A stretch of DNA of 40,683 nt from an uncultured Oscillospiraceae bacterium (lineage in GTDB: Bacteria > Bacillota > Clostridia > Oscillospirales > Acutalibacteraceae), in assembly GCA_900553525.1 (NCBI GenBank), contig USDZ01000001.1, positions 1 through 40,683 of the forward strand, written 5' to 3'. Below, piece by piece: positions 25,493 to 33,107 of the stretch (positions within the stretch are counted from its first letter, which is position 1; each line of letters opens with the position of its first letter). The notes beneath the pieces are model-generated. The model ran no database searches. It worked only from the letters and a program-made list of their open reading frames with translations, and had not been told where the DNA came from. The position numbers and the translations under genes are program-made.

Positions 25493-27074
25493 GGCCGGCA
25501 AACAGGCGGACAAACGCCACCGTCTGCGGGAAATTTTGGGGATACTCGCGCAGCACAATATTCTACGCGGCCTTACCCCGGTCAAATTGCGCCTTATTAT
25601 TCAAGATCTGGGACCAACTTTCGTTAAGCTGGGACAGATCCTCTCCATGCGGCAGGATATGCTCCCAGCGGAATATTGCCAAGAACTCACACTCCTTCGG
25701 ACAGACGTGTCCCCCATCCCCTTCGATGAAGTCAAAAAGGTGATCGAGGGGGAATACGGTGCTCCGATGAAATCCCTCTTTTTATCTTTCGATGAAACGC
25801 CCCTCGGTTCTGCCTCGATTGCACAGGTTCACACGGCTGTACTGCGAAACGGGTCCAAGGTCGCCGTCAAGGTGCAGCGCCCCGGCATCTGGGATACGAT
25901 GGCAAGGGACATTGCGCTTCTGCGCAGGGCGGCAGGGATCCTCCAACGGATCGGCGGCATCGGCGGAGTCATCGACTTTGGCATGGTACTCGACGAGATG
26001 TGGGCCGTGGCGCAGGAAGAGATGGACTTTCTTCTGGAAGCCCGTCATATGGACGAGTTCCGGGATGGAAACGCCGGCGTCGCGTATGTTTCCTGTCCTC
26101 GGGTGGAACACCGTTATACCACCTCGCGCGCCTTGATGATGGAATATATAGACGGCATCTCCATCGACGATACCGACCGTCTTCGGCGGGAGGGATATGA
26201 CCTCGATGAAATCGGGGAAAAACTGGCTGAAAATTATGTCCGGCAGATTCTGGACGAAGCTTTTTTTCATGCCGACCCCCATCCCGGCAATCTGCGGATA
26301 CGGGACGGCAAAATCATTTGGCTGGATCTCGGCATGATGGGCCGTCTAACTGAAAAGGACCGCGAACTCCTGAAAACTGCTGTGACAGCCGTGGCACAGT
26401 ACGACGCCGGGACTCTCAAAGACGTGCTGTTGGCGCTGGGCGTTCACAGTGGACGGATCGACCATGTCCGCCTCTATGCGGACATTGACGAATTCCTGTC
26501 GAAATACGCCGGAATGAGCATGGCAGAAATCGACCTGGCGCAACTGATGCAGGAACTCCTGTCTCTGGCCGAATCCCACGGCATCTCAATGCCCAAAGGT
26601 CTGTCCATGCTGGCTCGGGGCATCGTCACCATTCAAGGGGTTTTGGCCCGGATCAGCCCCGACATCCAGATCATCACGATCATGCACAACCACATTGCGG
26701 GCGGAGCCTTCGCTTCCTTCAACCTGAAAAAGGAAATGGAAAGCGGGGCCATGACCCTGCTGACTTCCAGCCGCAAGGCGCTCGACGTTCCGGCCCAGAT
26801 GTCCGACTTACTGAAAAACACGCTTAAAGGCCAGACCAAATTCTATATCGAACTAACCGGCTCGGCAGATCCTCTAAAGGCTGCTGACCAGCGGATGGAC
26901 AAGCTGGTTCTTGCATTGATCGACGCGGCTCTGATCATCGGCGCGAGTTTGCTTTCCACTTTAGATGCCGGACCCCGATTCTGGGGACTCCCGGTGCCGT
27001 CATGGATTGGGTATCTATTGGCTCTTGCGTTGGGCGGCGTGCTGCTGTTTCGAATGCGCCGCCGAAAGCGTTGA
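25473..27074 (+). CDS. ABC1/UbiB (AarF) family atypical kinase with two C-terminal TM segments
   Basis: LGPTFVKLGQILSMRQDMLPAEY, ASIAQVH, VAVKVQRPG and HADPHPGN. ATG 25473 overlaps the phasin-like gene by 20 nt. Confidence 0.9.
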   Translation: MDNRKIEAGKQADKRHRLREILGILAQHNILRGLTPVKLRLIIQDLGPTFVKLGQILSMRQDMLPAEYCQELTLLRTDVSPIPFDEVKKVIEGEYGAPMKSLFLSFDETPLGSASIAQVHTAVLRNGSKVAVKVQRPGIWDTMARDIALLRRAAGILQRIGGIGGVIDFGMVLDEMWAVAQEEMDFLLEARHMDEFRDGNAGVAYVSCPRVEHRYTTSRALMMEYIDGISIDDTDRLRREGYDLDEIGEKLAENYVRQILDEAFFHADPHPGNLRIRDGKIIWLDLGMMGRLTEKDRELLKTAVTAVAQYDAGTLKDVLLALGVHSGRIDHVRLYADIDEFLSKYAGMSMAEIDLAQLMQELLSLAESHGISMPKGLSMLARGIVTIQGVLARISPDIQIITIMHNHIAGGAFASFNLKKEMESGAMTLLTSSRKALDVPAQMSDLLKNTLKGQTKFYIELTGSADPLKAADQRMDKLVLALIDAALIIGASLLSTLDAGPRFWGLPVPSWIGYLLALALGGVLLFRMRRRKR

Positions 27075-27422
27075 GTTACCCTAATATAAAAGAAGATTGG
27101 CCTCACGGGGCCCTCCCCCCTTTTAGGCCCCACCGCCATACTCGTCACTCTGGCTCTGTGCGTAATGCTGCGCTCTCTGTCCGCCCGGAAGCCGGAACGG
27201 AATTTCCGTGTGTTTATCTTTCATTTCTCGTATGGGAACTGGTTTTTCCTCCTGGACGCGCTTTTCTATAACTTAGGTGAAAAATTCTACCATTCCTGCC
27301 GTATGCGGCCTCATTCCGCCGGGAAAGAGCGGTTCGGCCTGGATTGGGGGCGTTAAAACACGGCGCTCATCATCGCTCCAAACAAAAAATCGGCACTATT
27401 TTAGAGAGAAGACACGATTTTT

Positions 27423-27448
27423 CCCCGGACCGGTTTGCCAGTCCGGGG
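27423..27448. other. Hairpin marking the left edge of the AT-richer LytTR/ABC segment
   Basis: CCCCGGAC-N10-GTCCGGGG, an 8-bp stem. Confidence 0.5.
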
Positions 27449-27496
27449 ATACATTTGTTCTAATCCTTTATATTTGTAAAAACTGTTCTCTTAGAT

Positions 27497-27525
27497 TTGA
27501 AATATATGGGCATTTCTGCTATTAT
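27497..27525 (+). promoter_or_regulatory. Putative sigma-70 promoter of the LytTR-kinase genes (TTGAAA-17-TATTAT)
   Basis: TTGAAA at 27497-27502, a 17-nt spacer, and TATTAT at 27520-27525. This implies a ~230-nt leader. Confidence 0.5.
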
Positions 27526-27765
27526 ATATGAGATAAACAAGGCGTATTTTTATGAGTATTGGTTATAAGTCGTTGTTTGAACGGGATATGGGAAAACCGG
27601 TCTTCTGCATGGGGTGGGAATGGCGTAAACCCCCTTGCAAAACTCGGTAAAAATGGGTCTGCTAAGCTCGTCCTGTCTATAAAAAGCCGCGGGGCTGCCG
27701 AATTGAAGAGGAAGTGGAATTGCTGGATGAATGAGTTGAAAAAATCAAAGGGCGGGAGAATCGCA

Positions 27766-28464
27766 ATGAGATATAAAATTGCCATCTGTGACGACATGGA
27801 ACAGGATATAAAATATCTGGACTCTCTTGTCAACAAATGGGCTGTTCGAGTCAAAGCCTCTGTCGACATTCGCACATTTCCGTCTGCGGAAACCTTTTTG
27901 TTTGATTATGCAGAACAGAAGGATTATGATATTTTGTTGCTGGATATTGAGATGAAGTCCATAAACGGCATGGAGCTTGCCAAAAAGATCCGTAAGGAGA
28001 ACGAGGCGGTGCAGATTATCTTTACTACGGGATATTCGGATTATATTGCCGAAGGTTATGAGGTCGCGGCGCTGCATTATTTGATGAAGCCTGTTTCTCC
28101 AGAAAAGCTGGAAAACGTTCTGAACCGTGCCACAATGCAAATCAAGAAAAACGAAAAATCACTGTTTCTTTCGCTATCAGGTGAAATGATTCGGATTCCG
28201 GTTTACGAGATCCAATATCTTGAGGTGCAGCAAAACTATGTGACGATCCATGCTAAGAAGGACTATACCATTAAAAAGACACTGGGTGAATTTGAGCGGG
28301 AGTTGGACGACCGGTTTTACCGCATGGGGCGGTCTTATCTTTTGAATCTCTCCTATATTGATAAAATTACGAAAAACCGTGTTTTCCTTTCGGATGGCTT
28401 GATCATCCCACTGCCCAGAGGGCAGTACGAACCATTGGTCAAAGCGTTTATTGCGCATACATAA
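27766..28464 (+). CDS. LytTR/AlgR family response regulator
   Basis: Receiver IAICDD...ILLLDIEM and a C-terminal LytTR domain (IPVYEIQYLEVQQNYVTIH...FYRMGRSYLLNL). ATG 27766 lies 8 nt after GGGAG. The ORF-track 5' extension looks non-coding. Confidence 0.9.
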   Translation: MRYKIAICDDMEQDIKYLDSLVNKWAVRVKASVDIRTFPSAETFLFDYAEQKDYDILLLDIEMKSINGMELAKKIRKENEAVQIIFTTGYSDYIAEGYEVAALHYLMKPVSPEKLENVLNRATMQIKKNEKSLFLSLSGEMIRIPVYEIQYLEVQQNYVTIHAKKDYTIKKTLGEFERELDDRFYRMGRSYLLNLSYIDKITKNRVFLSDGLIIPLPRGQYEPLVKAFIAHT

Positions 28465-28475
28465 CGGAGGCTGCT

Positions 28476-29138
28476 ATGAAATTTTTCTCGAAACAAATCG
28501 ATAAACGCCTTGCCGCCTATCAACGGGAATTGATTGAAACACATTATACAGAAGTTGAAAATATGTATAAGCAGATGCGCGGCTGGCGCCATGACTATCG
28601 AAATCATATTCAGGCCATGAAAGCCTATGCGGCCAGCGGAGATATGCAGGCAATCCAAACGTATCTGGACGAATTGGAAACCGATTTGTCCACGGTAGAT
28701 ACCGCTGTTAAAACGGGCAATCCGATGGCGGATGCGATCCTCAACAGCAAAATTTCTCTTGCAAAATCAAGAAATGTCCCGGTGAAGGCGGATGTGTTTA
28801 TTCCGCTTGCTCTGAAAACTTCGGAACTGGATTTATGCGTGATCATAGGAAATCTTTTCGATAATGCTATCGAAGCCAGCCTCGCGTTGCCGGAGGAAAA
28901 GCGTCTGATCCGCATCTATATGGATATGAAAAACACGCAGCTTTATATTTCTTTTACCAATTTCACGGCCACGAAAAAGCAAAGGAAACAGAACGGAAGA
29001 TTTCAGACAACCAAAGGAAACGGACACGGTTTCGGTTTAGTCAGAATGGATACCATTATTGAAAGGCTGGACGGATATATCAACCGGAACAGTGAGGACG
29101 GCGCTTTTACCACGGAAATTCTCATCCCGCAAACATGA
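28476..29138 (+). CDS. GHKL-domain sensor kinase of the AgrC/HPK10 type lacking any transmembrane segment (220 aa)
   Basis: H-box WRHDYRNHIQ at residue ~38, N-box IIGNLFDNAIEA and G-box GHGFGL. I see no hydrophobic span. RBS GGAGG. Confidence 0.85.
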   Translation: MKFFSKQIDKRLAAYQRELIETHYTEVENMYKQMRGWRHDYRNHIQAMKAYAASGDMQAIQTYLDELETDLSTVDTAVKTGNPMADAILNSKISLAKSRNVPVKADVFIPLALKTSELDLCVIIGNLFDNAIEASLALPEEKRLIRIYMDMKNTQLYISFTNFTATKKQRKQNGRFQTTKGNGHGFGLVRMDTIIERLDGYINRNSEDGAFTTEILIPQT

Positions 29139-29139
29139 T

Positions 29140-29169
29140 GCAGTTCGTCACCCGCAAACAACGATTCGT
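29140..29169 (+). promoter_or_regulatory. Candidate LytTR box: two 9-mers (GCAGTTCGT, ACGATTCGT) separated by 12 nt
   Basis: The 9-mers match the LytTR consensus [TA][AC][CA]GTTN[AG][TG] at 8/9 and 7/9 positions, with 21-bp start-to-start spacing. A TAAAAT -10 candidate lies at 29201-29206 with a poor -35. Confidence 0.45.
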
Positions 29170-29229
29170 CCCCAAAATACCATTTGGGAGCGTCGCATGA
29201 TAAAATGGGCAGTGAGAGGGGTGGAAATT

Positions 29230-31089
29230 TTGAAAAAAGAGAAAGAAAAAACCGCAAAGCCCAAATATAACATGTGGCAGTGTTCCGCGTACATGATAGC
29301 GCTTACGTGGCGCGAAAAAGAGAAAAAGGTTCTGGTTTTGTGCTCGTTGCAGGTTTTGCTTGCGGTGGCAAGCAATCTGGTTAACCTGTATGTTTCGCCG
29401 TCCATCCTGTCGGTTGTGGAACGGCGGGCTTCGTTTACGGAGTTAACCGTGACCCTTTTGCTGTTTGTTTTGCTGTTGATGCTTTGTTCGGCGGCGACTT
29501 CCTATGTGAATGCCAATACTTTATACGGAAGAATCACCGTCCGATTATCGGTGATCGCGGCATTAAACAAAAAAGCCTGCACTACCTCTTATCCCAATTT
29601 GACAGACGAAAAATTTATCAAGCTGGGATCCAAGTCGCAGCAGGCAGTAAACGGTAATCGAGCAGCCACCGAAGCCGTTTGGGAGACGCTCACATCCCTC
29701 ATGCAAAATATTATTGGTTTTGTTATTTACCTGTTTTTACTGGTGTCCCTGGATTTATGGCTGATGGTGGTCATTTTACTCACCGCTTTAGTAGGGTATT
29801 TTGTGAATAAAAAGCTGACCGGCTACGGATACCGGCATCGTGAAGAAGAGGGCGAAATATCCGCAAAACTATGGTATCAGACCGACCAGGCAAGAAATTA
29901 CTGCGCGGCAAAGGATATTCGGATTTTTGGCATGAAGCCGTGGATTCAGGAGATCACCGCCAAAGCGATGACAGCGTATACCGCTTTTCATCGCCGTGCG
30001 AACAACATATACATCTGGGGAAGTATCCTGGATTTGGTGCTGGCGTTTCTGCGAAACGGCCTTGCGTATGCCTTTTTGATCCATTCGGTACTGACAAGCG
30101 AATTGAGCGTATCCGCATTCCTCCTGTATTTCTCGGCGGTAAACGGCTTTACCGCGTGGGTAAGCGGTATTCTGGGCAGTATGACAACCCTGTATCGCCA
30201 AAGTCTCGACATTTCCACCGTAAGAGAATTTATCGAATATCCGGAGCCTTTCCGGTTTGAAGACGGGGAAGAATTATCGGCTTCTGCCGATACCCAACAT
30301 GAACTTACGCTTGAGCATGTGTTTTTTAAGTATCCGGGAGCAGAGGAGTATACTCTGGAGGATATCAATATTACAATTCATCCGGGAGAAAAAATTGCCG
30401 TTGTCGGACTCAACGGCGCGGGAAAAACCACGCTCGTCAAGCTCCTTTGCGGCTTTTTTGACCCGACGCGCGGAAGGGTTCTCCTGGACGGAAAGGACAT
30501 CCGAACTTATAACCGGCAGGATTATTACACGATGTTTTCGGCGGTTTTTCAGGATTTTTCGCTGCTGGCAGGAACCGTGGCCACCAATATCGCGCAAGCG
30601 GAAGAGAATCCGGATATGGAGCGCATAAAGGACTGTGTGGAAAAGGCCGGGCTTACCGCGAAAATTAATTCCTTGAAAGACGGCTACCAGACCTATTTAA
30701 ACCGTGTCGTTTATGAAGACGGGGCGGAATTGTCGGGTGGGGAAACACAACGGCTGATGCTGGCCCGCGCCCTTTACAAAAAAGCGCCGTTTATCATTCT
30801 GGATGAACCGACGGCCGCCCTTGACCCCATCGCGGAAGCGGATCTGTACAGCAAATATAACGACATGACACAGGGCTGTACGTCCGTTTACATTTCACAC
30901 CGCCTTGCTTCCACCCGCTTTTGTGATCGGATCCTGCTGATTAGCGATCATAAAATTGCGGAAGAAGGCACCCACGAGGAACTCTTGAAGCTTTCCGGTG
31001 AATATGCGCGGCTGTTTGCAATTCAGAGCAAATATTACCGAGAGGGGGATGTTTATGAAAAAGGAAAAGAAGCTGCCGACCTGGCGTGA
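29230..31089 (+). CDS. ABC exporter, fused permease/ATPase
   Basis: Walker A GLNGAGKTT, signature LSGGETQR, Walker B FIILDEPTAALD. I prefer TTG 29230 behind GAGAGGGGTGG: (L)KKEKEKTAKPKYNMW parallels MKKEKKLPTW of the partner gene. ATG 29197 is the alternative start. Confidence 0.85.
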   Translation: MKKEKEKTAKPKYNMWQCSAYMIALTWREKEKKVLVLCSLQVLLAVASNLVNLYVSPSILSVVERRASFTELTVTLLLFVLLLMLCSAATSYVNANTLYGRITVRLSVIAALNKKACTTSYPNLTDEKFIKLGSKSQQAVNGNRAATEAVWETLTSLMQNIIGFVIYLFLLVSLDLWLMVVILLTALVGYFVNKKLTGYGYRHREEEGEISAKLWYQTDQARNYCAAKDIRIFGMKPWIQEITAKAMTAYTAFHRRANNIYIWGSILDLVLAFLRNGLAYAFLIHSVLTSELSVSAFLLYFSAVNGFTAWVSGILGSMTTLYRQSLDISTVREFIEYPEPFRFEDGEELSASADTQHELTLEHVFFKYPGAEEYTLEDINITIHPGEKIAVVGLNGAGKTTLVKLLCGFFDPTRGRVLLDGKDIRTYNRQDYYTMFSAVFQDFSLLAGTVATNIAQAEENPDMERIKDCVEKAGLTAKINSLKDGYQTYLNRVVYEDGAELSGGETQRLMLARALYKKAPFIILDEPTAALDPIAEADLYSKYNDMTQGCTSVYISHRLASTRFCDRILLISDHKIAEEGTHEELLKLSGEYARLFAIQSKYYREGDVYEKGKEAADLA

Positions 31090-32935
31090 AACATGGAAGC
31101 TCAACCGGCGCGCTTTTTCTTTGATTTATAAGCGTTGCCCTCGGATGATTGTTTCCCGGCTCATGAGTATCATTTGGGATGCTCTGACTCCGTATGTCGA
31201 CATTTATCTTTCGGCCCTGTTGATCACGGAACTTACCGGAACCCGCAATCCTTCCGTACTTACCAGGCTTGTTCTGATTATTTTGTGTTCGGCGGCGGTT
31301 ATTTCACTGGTGGCCGCCTTTCTGCATAAATGGCGCGATACGGAATGTGCCGGTCTTTATTACAAGGTGCAGCTCATTTTTTCTGAAAAAACGATGAGTA
31401 TGGACTATGCGGATGCAGACGATGCCAAAACCCATGAACTGTATAATACCATTGAGCAAAACCGCAACGGCGGCGGGTGGGGACTAAACCGGGTATACGG
31501 TCATATTGAAGGGCTCCTTTCAGCATTTCTCACCTTATTTGGCGGGATTGCGTTGACAATCTCATTATTTACAAGCCGTGTGCCGGAATCCTCCGGCGGG
31601 TATACCATTCTGAATAGCCCCTTGTTTATTCTGCTGATGATTTCGGTTATGCTGGCCATTACCTATTTTGCTCCCCTGCTTTCCAATAAAGCCGGAAGTT
31701 ATTATGCGCTCCATTCCGACTCCCACAATTTAGGGAACCGTTTGTTTGGCTATTTCGGCTTTCTTGGCTATAAAAATAACTTGGCCGCCGATGTGCGGAT
31801 TTACAGACAGGATTTGATTTGCGATAAGTATGCCAAGGATAAGACCACAACATTTAATTCCAAAGGGATATTTGCCAAATTTGCGAAAGGGCCGATGGGT
31901 CTTTATCATGCGGCGTCATCAGCTGTATCGGTTCTATTTACAGGGGTGGTCTACGCCTTTGTGTGCTTGAAAGCCCTGGGCGGCGCATTTGGAATCGGCG
32001 CTGTTACGCAATATGTATCCGCTATCACGCGGCTTGCCGGAAGCATCGGCTCTTCGATTGGCATCATGGGAGAAATGCGGAATAACGCCTCTTTTCTCAA
32101 GCTGATCTTTGAATTTTTGGATATTCCCAACCGCATGTATCAAGGCAGTTTGACGGTAGAAAAACGCATGGATCGGGATTATGAAATTGAATTTTGCAAC
32201 GTTTCTTTTCAATATCCCGGGAGTGAAACTTTTGCACTGCAAAATGTTTCGATGAAATTCCGTATCGGGGAGCGCCTTGCGGTGGTCGGCATGAACGGGA
32301 GCGGGAAAACCACCTTTATTAAGCTGCTGTGCCGCTTGTATGATCCGACGGAAGGAGAGATTCTGCTCAACGGGATTAACATTAAAAAATATGATTACAA
32401 GGAATATATGTCCGTCTTTTCGGTGGTGTTTCAGGATTATCAGCTGTTTGCCTACGGTCTCGGTGAAAATGTAGCGACGAAAACCGATTACGATCCAACG
32501 TTAGTGAAACGGTGTTTAACAAATGCCGGATTTGAAGAACGGCTCAAAGAATTACCGGATGGTCTCAATACCTATCTGTATAAGTATTTTTACAAGCAAG
32601 GTATCGATATTTCGGGCGGTGAAGCGCAAAAGATTGCGCTGGCCAGAGCGCTGCATAAAGATGCACCGTTCATCATTTTGGATGAACCGACCGCCGCCCT
32701 CGATCCGGTCGCCGAATATGAGATATACTCGAAGTTCAACGAAATCGTAGAGGACAAAACCGCGGTTTATATCAGCCATCGGCTTTCCTCCTGCCGGTTT
32801 TGCGATACAATCGCCGTGTTTGATCATGGACATATTGTCCAACATGGAAGTCACGACGAGTTGATAGCGGATATAAACGGCAAGTATCATGAGCTTTGGA
32901 ACGCACAGGCGCAGTATTACGTATCCAACACGTAA
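31055..32935 (+). CDS. ABC exporter, fused permease/ATPase, partner of the previous gene
   Basis: Walker A GMNGSGKTT, signature ISGGEAQK, Walker B FIILDEPTAALD. ATG 31055 follows GAGGGGGA and overlaps the upstream gene by 35 nt. Confidence 0.9.
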   Translation: MKKEKKLPTWRETWKLNRRAFSLIYKRCPRMIVSRLMSIIWDALTPYVDIYLSALLITELTGTRNPSVLTRLVLIILCSAAVISLVAAFLHKWRDTECAGLYYKVQLIFSEKTMSMDYADADDAKTHELYNTIEQNRNGGGWGLNRVYGHIEGLLSAFLTLFGGIALTISLFTSRVPESSGGYTILNSPLFILLMISVMLAITYFAPLLSNKAGSYYALHSDSHNLGNRLFGYFGFLGYKNNLAADVRIYRQDLICDKYAKDKTTTFNSKGIFAKFAKGPMGLYHAASSAVSVLFTGVVYAFVCLKALGGAFGIGAVTQYVSAITRLAGSIGSSIGIMGEMRNNASFLKLIFEFLDIPNRMYQGSLTVEKRMDRDYEIEFCNVSFQYPGSETFALQNVSMKFRIGERLAVVGMNGSGKTTFIKLLCRLYDPTEGEILLNGINIKKYDYKEYMSVFSVVFQDYQLFAYGLGENVATKTDYDPTLVKRCLTNAGFEERLKELPDGLNTYLYKYFYKQGIDISGGEAQKIALARALHKDAPFIILDEPTAALDPVAEYEIYSKFNEIVEDKTAVYISHRLSSCRFCDTIAVFDHGHIVQHGSHDELIADINGKYHELWNAQAQYYVSNT

Positions 32936-32948
32936 CCACACAAAACGG

Positions 32949-32994
32949 CCGGCCCTCAGATTCGAGAGAATCCGAGGGCCGGTTGTGGTTTTTA
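32949..32994. terminator. Strong terminator between the convergent ABC and Gfo/Idh/MocA genes
   Basis: CCGGCCCTCAGATTC-gaga-GAATCCGAGGGCCGG (15-bp stem, one G.U pair) followed by TTGTGGTTTTTATT. Confidence 0.8.
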
Positions 32995-33107
32995 TTCCAC
33001 TTCTTCTTTGCTCGTTGTGCTGAAACAGCCGGCCTTGCATCCGGTTATCTTACGCAACAAGGCGGCCTATCCCCTTATCGTTTCCAAAGCCTGCAACGAT
33101 TTCCGAT

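What the first reader, a model, noticed from the sequence alone, without database searches (positions are those of the whole stretch)
29140..29232. Canonical LytTR box (9-mer, 12-nt gap, 9-mer) placed exactly between the kinase stop and the ABC exporter start
Seen in the sequence:
- GCAGTTCGT (29140-29148) and ACGATTCGT (29161-29169) are direct repeats, 21 bp start to start.
- They match the published LytTR/AgrA-type consensus [TA][AC][CA]GTTN[AG][TG] at 8/9 and 7/9 positions.
- A TAAAAT -10 candidate (29201-29206) with a poor -35 (TACCAT) follows at the distance expected for an activator-dependent promoter.

Inference: the exporter pair is the regulated output of the LytTR regulator. If transcription starts near 29213, the ATG at 29197 is excluded and the exporter starts at TTG 29230 behind GAGAGGGGTGG. 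That makes its N-terminus (L/M)KKEKEK parallel the partner protein's MKKEKK. I did not find an equally good box upstream of the regulator gene itself.
Basis: partly seen in the sequence, partly recalled or inferred. Interest (0 to 1): 0.6.

Follow-up and report, generated by a model that had tools for sequence, protein, structure and literature searches.

The report
Regulator binding site driving ABC exporter
Two 13-base direct repeats just after the kinase gene are a real, widely conserved docking site for the neighbouring LytTR regulator, placed to switch on a two-gene ABC export pump; it is a correct but fairly ordinary promoter prediction for an uncharacterised gut-Clostridia gene cassette.

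Summary
Observation confirmed; interpretation supported, with corrections.

All coordinates are right.

The evidence comes from relatives.
- All 70 related loci with the order kinase then exporter carry the same element in that spacer: tGCAATTCGTCCCC-N8-RCRATTCGTCCCC, with a 21-bp period.
- An extended -10 (TGnTAnnnT) follows at a fixed 38±1 nt in 62 of 71 spacers.
- A Shine-Dalgarno and the exporter start follow 11-22 nt after the predicted transcription start.
- A pattern built from the other loci hits the window once, with no mismatch (0 of 100 shuffles match). It is the only pair in the 1.76-Mb assembly.
- In 401 class-level genomes the core pattern occurs in 8. Seven of those hits lie between kinase and exporter.
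- Distant paralogues keep the layout but change the half-site (ATTCGTGC; TYATCCCT).

No box lies upstream of the regulator gene. TTG 29230 is supported as the exporter start.

In 51 of 71 spacers repeat 2 also forms a terminator hairpin. The window has lost it.

This scan has noted the same cassette and box on other DNA (e1-2203560, e1-4239039). Binding and the transcription start remain untested.

The parts
27497..27525 (+). Sigma-70-type promoter candidate (TTGAAA-17-TATTAT, TG-extended) for the regulator-kinase operon. It is about 240 nt before the regulator ATG.
   Evidence: 10 of 12 matches, TG present. No box pair occurs anywhere upstream of the regulator.
27766..28464 (+). Response regulator with a receiver domain and a LytTR DNA-binding domain (232 aa).
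   Evidence: PF00072 at 63.6 bits and PF04397 at 62.1 bits, against a cut-off of 22.6. It is the only LytTR regulator of this type found in the assembly.
28476..29138 (+). 220-aa histidine kinase core (SpoOB-type helical domain plus GHKL ATPase). There is no room for a membrane sensor.
   Evidence: PF14689 and PF14501. It is 74-92% identical in 80 loci from many Clostridia families.
29140..29152 (+). Repeat 1 of the operator, GCAGTTCGTCACC. It starts 2 nt after the kinase stop. It lies at about -73 to -61 if transcription starts near 29213.
   Evidence: family consensus tGCAATTCGTCCCC, up to 2 bits per position; 17.8 bits.
29161..29173 (+). Repeat 2 of the operator, ACGATTCGTCCCC, 21 bp after repeat 1. 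It lies at about -52 to -40.
   Evidence: (21.4 bits, the best half-site in the genome).
29171..29188 (+). Vestigial hairpin CCCAAA-ATACCA-TTTGGG with no T run. It occupies the place of the terminator hairpin that most relatives have.
   Evidence: the window folds no better than shuffles (z = 0.28), while L015 and L032 give z of -4.2 and -3.7; hairpin plus T run in 51 of 71 spacers.
29198..29206 (+). Extended -10 element TGATAAAAT (TG at 29198-99, TAAAAT at 29201-06). The -35 position holds TACCAT (29178-83), which is a poor match.
   Evidence: TGnTAnnnT is present in 65 of 71 spacers. The hexamer starts 38 nt after the first A of repeat 2 in 52 loci, and 37 nt in 6 loci including the window.
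29211..29214 (+). Predicted transcription start zone (inferred, 5-8 nt after the -10).
   Evidence: Inference geometry.
29214..29224 (+). Shine-Dalgarno GAGAGGGGTGG, 5 nt before TTG 29230.
   Evidence: Relatives carry GAGGTGA or GGGGTG 5-8 nt before the start.
29230..31089 (+). ABC exporter half-transporter 1 (fused membrane and ATPase domains), with a TTG start.
   Evidence: PF00005; MsbA-like, below all equivalog cut-offs; 47-87% identity in relatives; conserved N-terminus.
31055..32935 (+). ABC exporter half-transporter 2. It overlaps the end of gene 1 by 35 nt.
   Evidence: conserved MKK..K..LTWREAWKLNRRA N-terminus.
32949..32982 (.). 15-bp GC-rich hairpin directly after the exporter genes. 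The T run is on the minus strand, so it is shared with the convergent gene.

Best explanation
Proposed mechanism. The two 13-bp direct repeats (29140-29152 and 29161-29173, 21-bp period) are the operator of the adjacent REC-LytTR response regulator.

1. Once phosphorylated by the 220-aa cytoplasmic kinase, the regulator binds the two repeats as a head-to-tail dimer on one face of the helix. The pair is centred near -56.
2. This activates a promoter that has no usable -35 and relies on an extended -10 (TGATAAAAT, 29198-29206).
3. Transcription starts near 29211-29214. The short leader carries only the Shine-Dalgarno.
4. Translation of the first exporter subunit begins at TTG 29230, and the second subunit is translationally overlapped.

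The regulator-kinase operon has its own sigma-70-type promoter (27497-27525) and no box. The circuit is therefore a constitutive sensor plus an inducible pump, like a detoxification module. It is not a self-inducing quorum-sensing loop.

In most relatives repeat 2 also forms the 5' arm of an intrinsic terminator that ends the regulator-kinase transcript. The window has lost that hairpin and T run, so some read-through into the exporter genes is likely here.

What is shown:
- Conservation, phasing and uniqueness of the box.
- Fixed spacing to the -10.
- Linkage to the cassette.

What is inferred:
- Who binds the box.
- The sign of regulation.
- The transcription start.
- The inducing signal.
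For: Conservation and phasing:
- All 70 loci with the order kinase then exporter carry the box in that spacer; 64 reach 16/20 or more and six carry self-similar variants.
- An unbiased search for the best 11-mer direct repeat in those spacers returns a 21-bp period in 52 of 70.
- Core positions reach 1.7-2.0 bits.

Promoter geometry:
- The extended -10 sits at a fixed 37-39 nt from repeat 2 in 62 of 71 spacers, with or without a hairpin.
- The Shine-Dalgarno and start codon follow 11-22 nt after the predicted start.

Uniqueness and specificity:
- The pair is unique in the window and in the genome.
- Other single half-sites lie inside long ORFs.
- In 401 class-level genomes the core pattern is in 8 genomes, once each. 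The reversed control gives 0. Six of the 7 non-own hits lie between kinase and exporter.

Link to the cassette and its regulator:
- In L012 the whole box-plus-promoter unit is duplicated in front of additional genes.
- Distant paralogues (kinase 47-56% identical) keep the layout but carry other half-sites. These are ATTCGTGC twice at 21 bp, and TCATCCCT/TTATCCCT. Different classes coexist in one genome. This is as expected if box and regulator co-evolve.
- The regulator has a LytTR domain.

Agreement with known LytTR regulators:
- AgrA binds paired direct repeats just upstream of weak promoters (PMC4227749).
- The half-site core CAGTTCGTC resembles the AlgR core CCGTTCGTC at 8 of 9 positions (PMC4064291).
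Against: - There is no binding, footprint or transcript-end data.
- The generic LytTR consensus match is itself no better than chance.
- The family consensus departs from the generic one at position 4 (A instead of G).
- Repeat 2 is part of a terminator stem in 51 of 71 spacers. Part of its conservation could therefore be RNA-structural.
- Co-variation of box class with regulator rests on a handful of distant loci.
- The window lacks a terminator, so the exporter could be expressed partly by read-through, independent of the box.
Confidence: 0.8

Rival explanations
1. The repeats are conserved mainly as RNA. They would be pieces of the intrinsic terminator, or a 3'-UTR structure, of the regulator-kinase transcript, not a protein-binding operator.
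For: - In 51 of 71 spacers repeat 2 pairs with a downstream inverted copy (GGGGACGAAT) followed by a T run.
- These hairpins fold far better than shuffles (L015 z = -4.2, L032 z = -3.7).
- G-to-A changes in repeat 2 are matched in the 3' arm in L029, L030 and L037.
Against: - Repeat 1 is as conserved as repeat 2 but is outside the hairpin.
- The box is fully conserved in the 20 spacers without a hairpin or T run, including the window and L001, L002 and L021.
- The 3' arm is much less conserved (0.3-0.75 bits) than the repeats (1.7-2 bits), and often pairs only with CCCC plus loop bases.
- The strict 21-bp phasing and the fixed distance to the -10 have no RNA rationale.
- There is no Rfam match.
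Confidence: 0.05
2. The box is a genuine protein site, but it either acts negatively (operator for repression or roadblock of read-through from the kinase gene) or is bound by a regulator other than the adjacent LytTR protein.
For: - The sign of regulation and the identity of the binder were not tested.
- The window has no terminator, so read-through exists to be blocked.
- AlgR-type regulators can repress as well as activate (PMC4064291).
Against: - The site lies upstream of the -35 position, not over the -10 or the start.
- The promoter lacks a -35 in nearly all loci, so it needs help.
- Box and cassette are inseparable across families and change together in paralogues.
- No other regulator gene is conserved beside the cassette.
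Confidence: 0.12
3. The repeats are a chance similarity in a short spacer and have no function.
For: The generic LytTR consensus at this stringency matches 52 times in the window against 50 expected.
Against. These show conservation in 70 of 70 loci, uniqueness in the genome, and 0 of 100 shuffles matching the family pattern.
Confidence: 0.01

Closest known systems
AgrA boxes at the agr P2/P3 promoters of Staphylococcus aureus (LytTR family)
   Same: - A pair of direct repeats with a period of about 21 bp.
- The pair is bound (there) by a dimer of a REC-LytTR regulator.
- It lies directly upstream of a promoter with a defective -35/spacer, which therefore depends on the activator (PMC4227749).
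- Here the pair is centred near -56 relative to the predicted start.
   Different: - The half-site is GCAATTCGTCCCC (13 nt with a C4 tail), not ACAGTTAAG (the AgrA sequence is from my own knowledge).
- The promoter relies on an extended -10.
- There is no box in front of the regulator-kinase operon, so there is no autoinduction loop.
- The kinase has no membrane sensor, and there is no peptide pheromone gene.
AlgR binding sites of Pseudomonas aeruginosa (core CCGTTCGTC)
   Same: - The regulator has a LytTR domain.
- The 9-bp core is nearly the same. The window's repeat 1, CAGTTCGTC, matches at 8 of 9 positions. Repeat 2, CGATTCGTC, matches at 7 of 9 (PMC4064291).
   Different: - AlgR sites are single 9-mers scattered at very different distances and orientations from the start.
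- Here there is a strictly phased tandem pair at a fixed promoter distance, in Gram-positive Clostridia, controlling one adjacent operon.
Bce-type detoxification modules (BceRS-BceAB of Bacillus subtilis); comparison from my own knowledge and from note e1-2203560
   Same: A constitutively expressed two-component system sits next to an ABC transporter operon that it induces through a promoter-proximal repeat. The kinase has little or no sensing domain of its own. The regulon is essentially one operon.
   Different: - There the regulator is of the OmpR family; here it is LytTR.
- There the kinase has two membrane helices; here it has none.
- There the transporter is a BceAB (FtsX-type permease plus separate ATPase); here it is a heterodimeric fused exporter.
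- The substrate here is unknown.
VirR boxes of Clostridium perfringens (VirSR)
   Same: A clostridial LytTR regulator recognises two imperfect direct repeats immediately upstream of the target promoter, where spacing and phasing matter (my own knowledge; VirSR papers were listed but not read).
   Different: The box sequence differs. VirS is a polytopic membrane kinase. The targets are toxin and regulatory RNA genes, not an adjacent exporter.

Membership tests
LytTR-type operator (AgrA/ComE/PlnC/VirR style paired direct repeats) | Two direct repeats of about 9-13 bp with a start-to-start period of about 21 bp (two helical turns). | tested here: met
   The window period is 21 bp. The best direct repeat in 52 of 70 related spacers has exactly a 21-bp period. 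One locus (L069) has 20 bp.
LytTR-type operator (AgrA/ComE/PlnC/VirR style paired direct repeats) | Half-sites match the published degenerate consensus [TA][AC][CA]GTTN[AG][TG]. | tested here: inconclusive
   The window matches at 8/9 and 7/9, but this level of match is at chance frequency (52 hits against 50 expected). The family consensus is (G/A)CAATTCGT, with A at position 4 in 48 of 70 (repeat 1) and 59 of 70 (repeat 2). The similarity to the AlgR core CCGTTCGTC is closer.
LytTR-type operator (AgrA/ComE/PlnC/VirR style paired direct repeats) | A LytTR-domain regulator is encoded in the same locus. | tested here: met
   PF04397 at 62.1 bits against a cut-off of 22.6, in the gene at 27766-28464. 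A regulator homologue lies in the same locus in about 73 of the 80 loci, usually directly upstream of the kinase; the rest are mostly cut by a contig end.
LytTR-type operator (AgrA/ComE/PlnC/VirR style paired direct repeats) | Located just upstream of the -35 position of a weak, activator-dependent promoter. | tested here: met
   The extended -10 lies 37-39 nt after repeat 2 in 62 of 71 spacers. There is no TTGACA-like hexamer at the -35 position. The scan finds no canonical promoter there in the window. The transcription start itself was not measured.
LytTR-type operator (AgrA/ComE/PlnC/VirR style paired direct repeats) | Bound by the phosphorylated regulator. | not testable with these tools
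   This needs EMSA or footprinting. The only indirect support is that the box class changes with cassette divergence.
Peptide quorum-sensing LytTR circuit (agr, com, blp, pln type) | The box also lies in front of the regulator/kinase operon (positive autoregulation). | tested here: not met
   There is no second pair in the window. There is none within 4 kb upstream in any of the 80 loci, on either strand.
Peptide quorum-sensing LytTR circuit (agr, com, blp, pln type) | A polytopic membrane kinase that senses an exported peptide. | tested here: not met
   The kinase is 220 aa and contains only the SPOB_a and GHKL domains. No pheromone or C39-peptidase exporter signature was found; the exporters lack a peptidase domain.
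Intrinsic (Rho-independent) terminator | A GC-rich hairpin followed directly by a T run. | tested here: not met
   The window has only a 6-bp stem at 29171-29188, no T run, and z = 0.28. The feature is met in 51 of 71 related spacers.

The most novel reading that the evidence does not exclude
The box is the operator of an undescribed, horizontally spread family of self-contained 'sensor-less kinase + LytTR regulator + exporter' modules. Three features would define the family:

1. The operator-promoter unit is portable. In L012 it is duplicated to recruit a HAD hydrolase, a dCMP/cytidine deaminase and a NUDIX hydrolase.
2. In most members the unit doubles as the terminator of the upstream sensor operon.
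3. It comes in several mutually insulated operator 'dialects' (TTCGTCCCC, TTCGTGC, TYATCCCT), which let two or three paralogous modules coexist in one genome without cross-talk.
Probability: 0.45. Interest if true: 0.6.

Novelty: new member of a known kind. Interest (0 to 1): 0.42.

Why it matters
The result gives a concrete, testable cis-element and a predicted one-operon regulon for a four-gene cassette.

How widespread the cassette is:
- More than 500 kinase-encoding stretches matched in species-representative genomes.
- About 3% of sampled class-level genomes carry it.
- It is patchy across families, yet the kinase is up to 92% identical between them.

I found no description of the cassette in the searched literature.

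What the operator sequence makes possible:
- Building reporters to look for the inducing signal of a kinase that has no sensor domain.
- Finding out what the exporter expels.
- Annotating the exporter's true TTG start.

On its own, it is an expected type of site for a LytTR regulator.

Tried and rejected
- **Generic LytTR consensus scan.** It has no discriminating power (52 hits against 50 expected), so it was rejected as evidence.
- **First family-pattern scan.** I used a wrong spacer of 8 N instead of 9 and found nothing. This was my slip, corrected.
- **Rfam at a permissive threshold over 27000-29500.** There was no RNA family match, so a riboswitch or known leader is unlikely.
- **Plasmid collection with the kinase protein.** Only matches below 31% identity were found, so there is no evidence that the cassette is plasmid-borne.
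- **Solved structures with the regulator.** Only receiver-domain hits and a weak ComE hit came back. That is too distant to read DNA-contact residues, so I did not pursue it.
- **Literature searches.** I searched for the box sequence and for LytTR plus soluble kinase plus heterodimeric exporter. Nothing describes this cassette. PMC6222199 turned out to concern an OmpR-family regulator.
- **Other high-scoring single half-sites in the genome (C51, C36, C24) and a 17/20 pair (C60).** All lie inside long ORFs, and the single half-sites have no partner. I treated them as chance.
- **A third, inverted box copy as a regulator site.** I rejected this as the main reading. That arm is weakly conserved, often pairs only with the C4 tail, and is missing in 20 spacers.
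- **Residue-level co-variation between regulator and box class.** There are too few distant loci to test it.
Full report
**1. What is in the sequence**

The window holds, on the plus strand, four genes in a row.
- A REC-LytTR response regulator at 27766-28464.
- Eleven bases later, a 220-aa kinase consisting only of a SpoOB-type helical domain and a GHKL ATPase, at 28476-29138.
- After a 91-bp spacer, two fused ABC exporter half-transporters at 29230-31089 and 31055-32935.

Every coordinate in the finding is correct:
- GCAGTTCGT at 29140-48 and ACGATTCGT at 29161-69, 21 bp apart.
- The kinase stop at 29136-38.
- ATG at 29197, TAAAAT at 29201-06, and TACCAT at 29178-83.
- TTG 29230, five bases after GAGAGGGGTGG.

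**2. Is it more than chance?**

The published degenerate LytTR consensus, written as two 9-mers with a 12-nt gap and allowing three mismatches, matches 52 places in the window against 50.2 +/- 6.9 in shuffles. The match to that consensus therefore carries no information. The evidence comes from relatives.

**3. Comparative evidence**

*Relatives and synteny.* A scan of species-representative genomes with the kinase returned more than 537 relatives. The best 80 are 74-92% identical. They come from Lachnospiraceae, Oscillospiraceae, Ruminococcaceae, Christensenellales, Peptoniphilaceae and even Gorillibacterium. Seventy of these loci show the order kinase then exporter 1, nearly all with the regulator upstream and exporter 2 downstream.

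*The box.* Printing the DNA after each kinase stop showed the same element nearly everywhere.
- Scoring ATTCGTCCCC twice at 21 bp, each 8.6-kb locus has at most one hit of 16/20 or better on either strand. L012 is the exception, with two.
- Every hit is on the gene strand, downstream of the kinase in the gene direction; in a few loci it overlaps the kinase's 3' end.
- All 70 loci with kinase then exporter carry the box in that spacer. Sixty-four reach 16/20 or more. Six carry self-similar variants, such as GTTCATCACC twice or ACTCAGCCCC twice.
- A consensus-free search for the best 11-mer direct repeat in each spacer, over periods of 12-39 bp, returns exactly 21 bp in 52 of 70.

*Anchored alignment.* The ungapped alignment gives tGCAATTCGTCCCC-N8-(A/G)C(A/G)ATTCGTCCCC, with 1.7-2.0 bits at the core positions. 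After that come a T run, then TG, then TAnnnT.

The conserved half-site is thus 13 nt, not 9. In the window these are 29140-29152 (GCAGTTCGTCACC) and 29161-29173 (ACGATTCGTCCCC).

**4. Significance with a motif derived from other loci**

- The degenerate family pattern CRRTTCRTCMCC-N9-CRRTTCRTCMCC matches the window once, with no mismatch. Even at three mismatches nothing else matches, and 0 of 100 shuffles give any match.
- A half-site matrix trained without the window scores repeat 2 at 21.4 bits, the best half-site in the 1.76-Mb, 77%-complete assembly. Repeat 1 scores 17.8 bits, the third best.
- The pair is the only one in the assembly at 18/20 or more.
- Other isolated half-sites lie inside long ORFs without a partner.

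The converse test also holds. The core pattern TTCRTCMCC-N12-TTCRTCCCC was searched in 401 evenly sampled genomes of the class.
- It occurs in 8 genomes, once each.
- The reversed control gives none.
- Six of the seven non-own hits lie between a kinase homologue and an exporter, on the same strand.
- The seventh sits inside a pseudouridine-synthase-like ORF and looks like chance.

**5. The promoter**

- TGnTAnnnT is present in 65 of 71 spacers.
- Its hexamer starts 38 nt after the first A of repeat 2 in 52 loci, 37 nt in six (including the window) and 39 nt in four.
- This spacing holds whether or not a hairpin lies in between.
- No TTGACA-like hexamer sits at the -35 position. In the window that position holds TACCAT.
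- The window's -10 is an extended -10, TGATAAAAT at 29198-29206.

With a start near 29211-29214, repeat 2 lies at about -52 to -40 and repeat 1 at about -73 to -61. This compares well with AgrA, which binds paired direct repeats directly upstream of promoters with defective spacing (PMC4227749). The consensus scan finds no canonical promoter before the exporter. It does find a good one (TTGAAA-17-TATTAT with TG, 27497-27525) before the regulator.

**6. The exporter start**

- In relatives the start codon with the best Shine-Dalgarno lies 11-22 nt after the predicted transcription start. It is often TTG or GTG.
- The proteins begin with a short Lys/Glu-rich stretch followed by KPKYNMWQ.
- The closest relatives (L001-L003, and L090 and L091) keep the GGGGTG Shine-Dalgarno plus TTG.
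- In L002 an in-frame stop lies between the -10 and the TTG.

The ATG at 29197 is simply the RTG of the -16/-10 element. TTG 29230 is therefore the supported start. The partner subunit's Lys-rich N-terminus (MKKEKK...) is also conserved.

**7. A second layer: the terminator**

In 51 of 71 spacers repeat 2 pairs with a downstream inverted copy (GGGGACGAAT), which is followed by T5-7. This makes a strong intrinsic terminator for the regulator-kinase transcript, immediately in front of the TG of the -10.

This does not explain the box, for four reasons:
- Repeat 1 is outside the hairpin and equally conserved.
- The 3' arm is far less conserved (0.3-0.75 bits).
- Some hairpins use only the C4 tail.
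- Twenty spacers have a perfect box and no hairpin. The window is one of them: it has a 6-bp stem, no T run, and z = 0.28.

In the window, read-through from the upstream promoter into the exporter genes is therefore plausible.

**8. Box and regulator change together**

More distant paralogues (kinase 47-56% identical, regulator 41-51%) keep the layout: kinase stop, two repeats at 21 bp, extended -10, Shine-Dalgarno, exporter. Their half-sites differ:
- ATTCGTGC(C/T) in L105 and L106, and a related version in L098.
- TCATCCCT/TTATCCCT in L099 and L100.

Genomes G079 and G356 each carry both a TTC(G/A)TCCCC-class and a TTCGTGC-class module. This is what a cognate regulator-operator pair would show. 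The sample is small.

**9. No autoregulation**

Neither the window nor any of the 80 loci has a second pair upstream of the regulator. The circuit thus differs from agr, com and blp loops. It resembles a constitutive sensor with an inducible pump.

**10. Comparison with what is known**

- The element meets the architectural definition of a LytTR operator: phased direct repeats, an adjacent LytTR regulator, and a position upstream of a weak promoter.
- Its core is closest to the AlgR 9-mer CCGTTCGTC, matching at 8 of 9 positions in repeat 1 (PMC4064291).
- I found no paper describing this cassette or box.
- Earlier notes of this scan had already recorded the same cassette on other DNA. One recorded ATTCGTCCCCC at 21 bp in another genome. 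I treated those notes as leads and re-derived everything here.

**11. Verdict**

It is a new member of a known kind of site.

Two things remain inferred:
- Binding by the regulator, its sign, the transcription start and the signal were not tested.

Noticed in passing
window 27000-33000: The cassette sits in a low-GC island: 43-50% GC against 52-56% on both sides. The kinase is 89-92% identical in genomes of another family (G304, G015), yet it is found in only 1 of 8 other genomes of the window's own family and in 13 of 399 class genomes. This looks like horizontal spread.
   Followed up: partly
80 related loci (L001-L080): The sensor-less kinase is the most conserved part of the cassette. It is 74-92% identical, against 46-76% for the regulator and 45-87% for the exporter subunits. 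That is unusual for a signalling protein with no obvious input domain.
   Followed up: no
L012:5600-8260: Two identical copies of the whole box-plus-hairpin-plus-extended -10 unit. One precedes a HAD hydrolase, a dCMP/cytidine deaminase and an unknown membrane protein. The other precedes a NUDIX hydrolase and the exporter. A DUF2971 protein follows the kinase. This may hint at a link with nucleotide or nucleoside chemistry, which is speculative.
   Followed up: partly
window 29126-29135 and 29151-29160: An exact 10-bp direct repeat, CCCGCAAACA, with 25-bp spacing. The first copy encodes the last kinase codons and the second is the spacer between the two boxes. The repeated unit may therefore be longer than the box, and may have arisen by tandem duplication of the kinase 3' end.
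   Followed up: no
L098, L099, L100, L105, L106 (spacer after the kinase): Distant paralogous cassettes carry other half-site classes at the same 21-bp period: ATTCGTGC and TCATCCCT/TTATCCCT. Two classes coexist in genomes G079 and G356.
   Followed up: partly
L007, L029, L030, L046, L071 (between the -10 and the exporter start): These loci have leaders of 56-171 nt, or longer in L071, instead of the usual 11-22 nt. The L029 leader contains a GC-rich hairpin-like insert. Their nature is unknown.
   Followed up: no
L016, L018, L027: A rearranged version of the cassette: the kinase is followed by the regulator, and the exporter genes lie on the opposite strand. The exporter promoter lies beyond the end of the fetched DNA, so the box could not be checked there.
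   Followed up: no
G100, G262, G314 (L099-L101): Three genomes of one genus show a single in-frame TAG inside the kinase homologue. It could be a shared pseudogene, two genes, or a recoding event.
   Followed up: no
window 27075-27765: A 690-bp stretch without a convincing gene lies before the regulator. It holds a strong TG-extended promoter candidate at 27497-27525, which leaves a leader of about 240 nt. No Rfam family matches it.
   Followed up: partly
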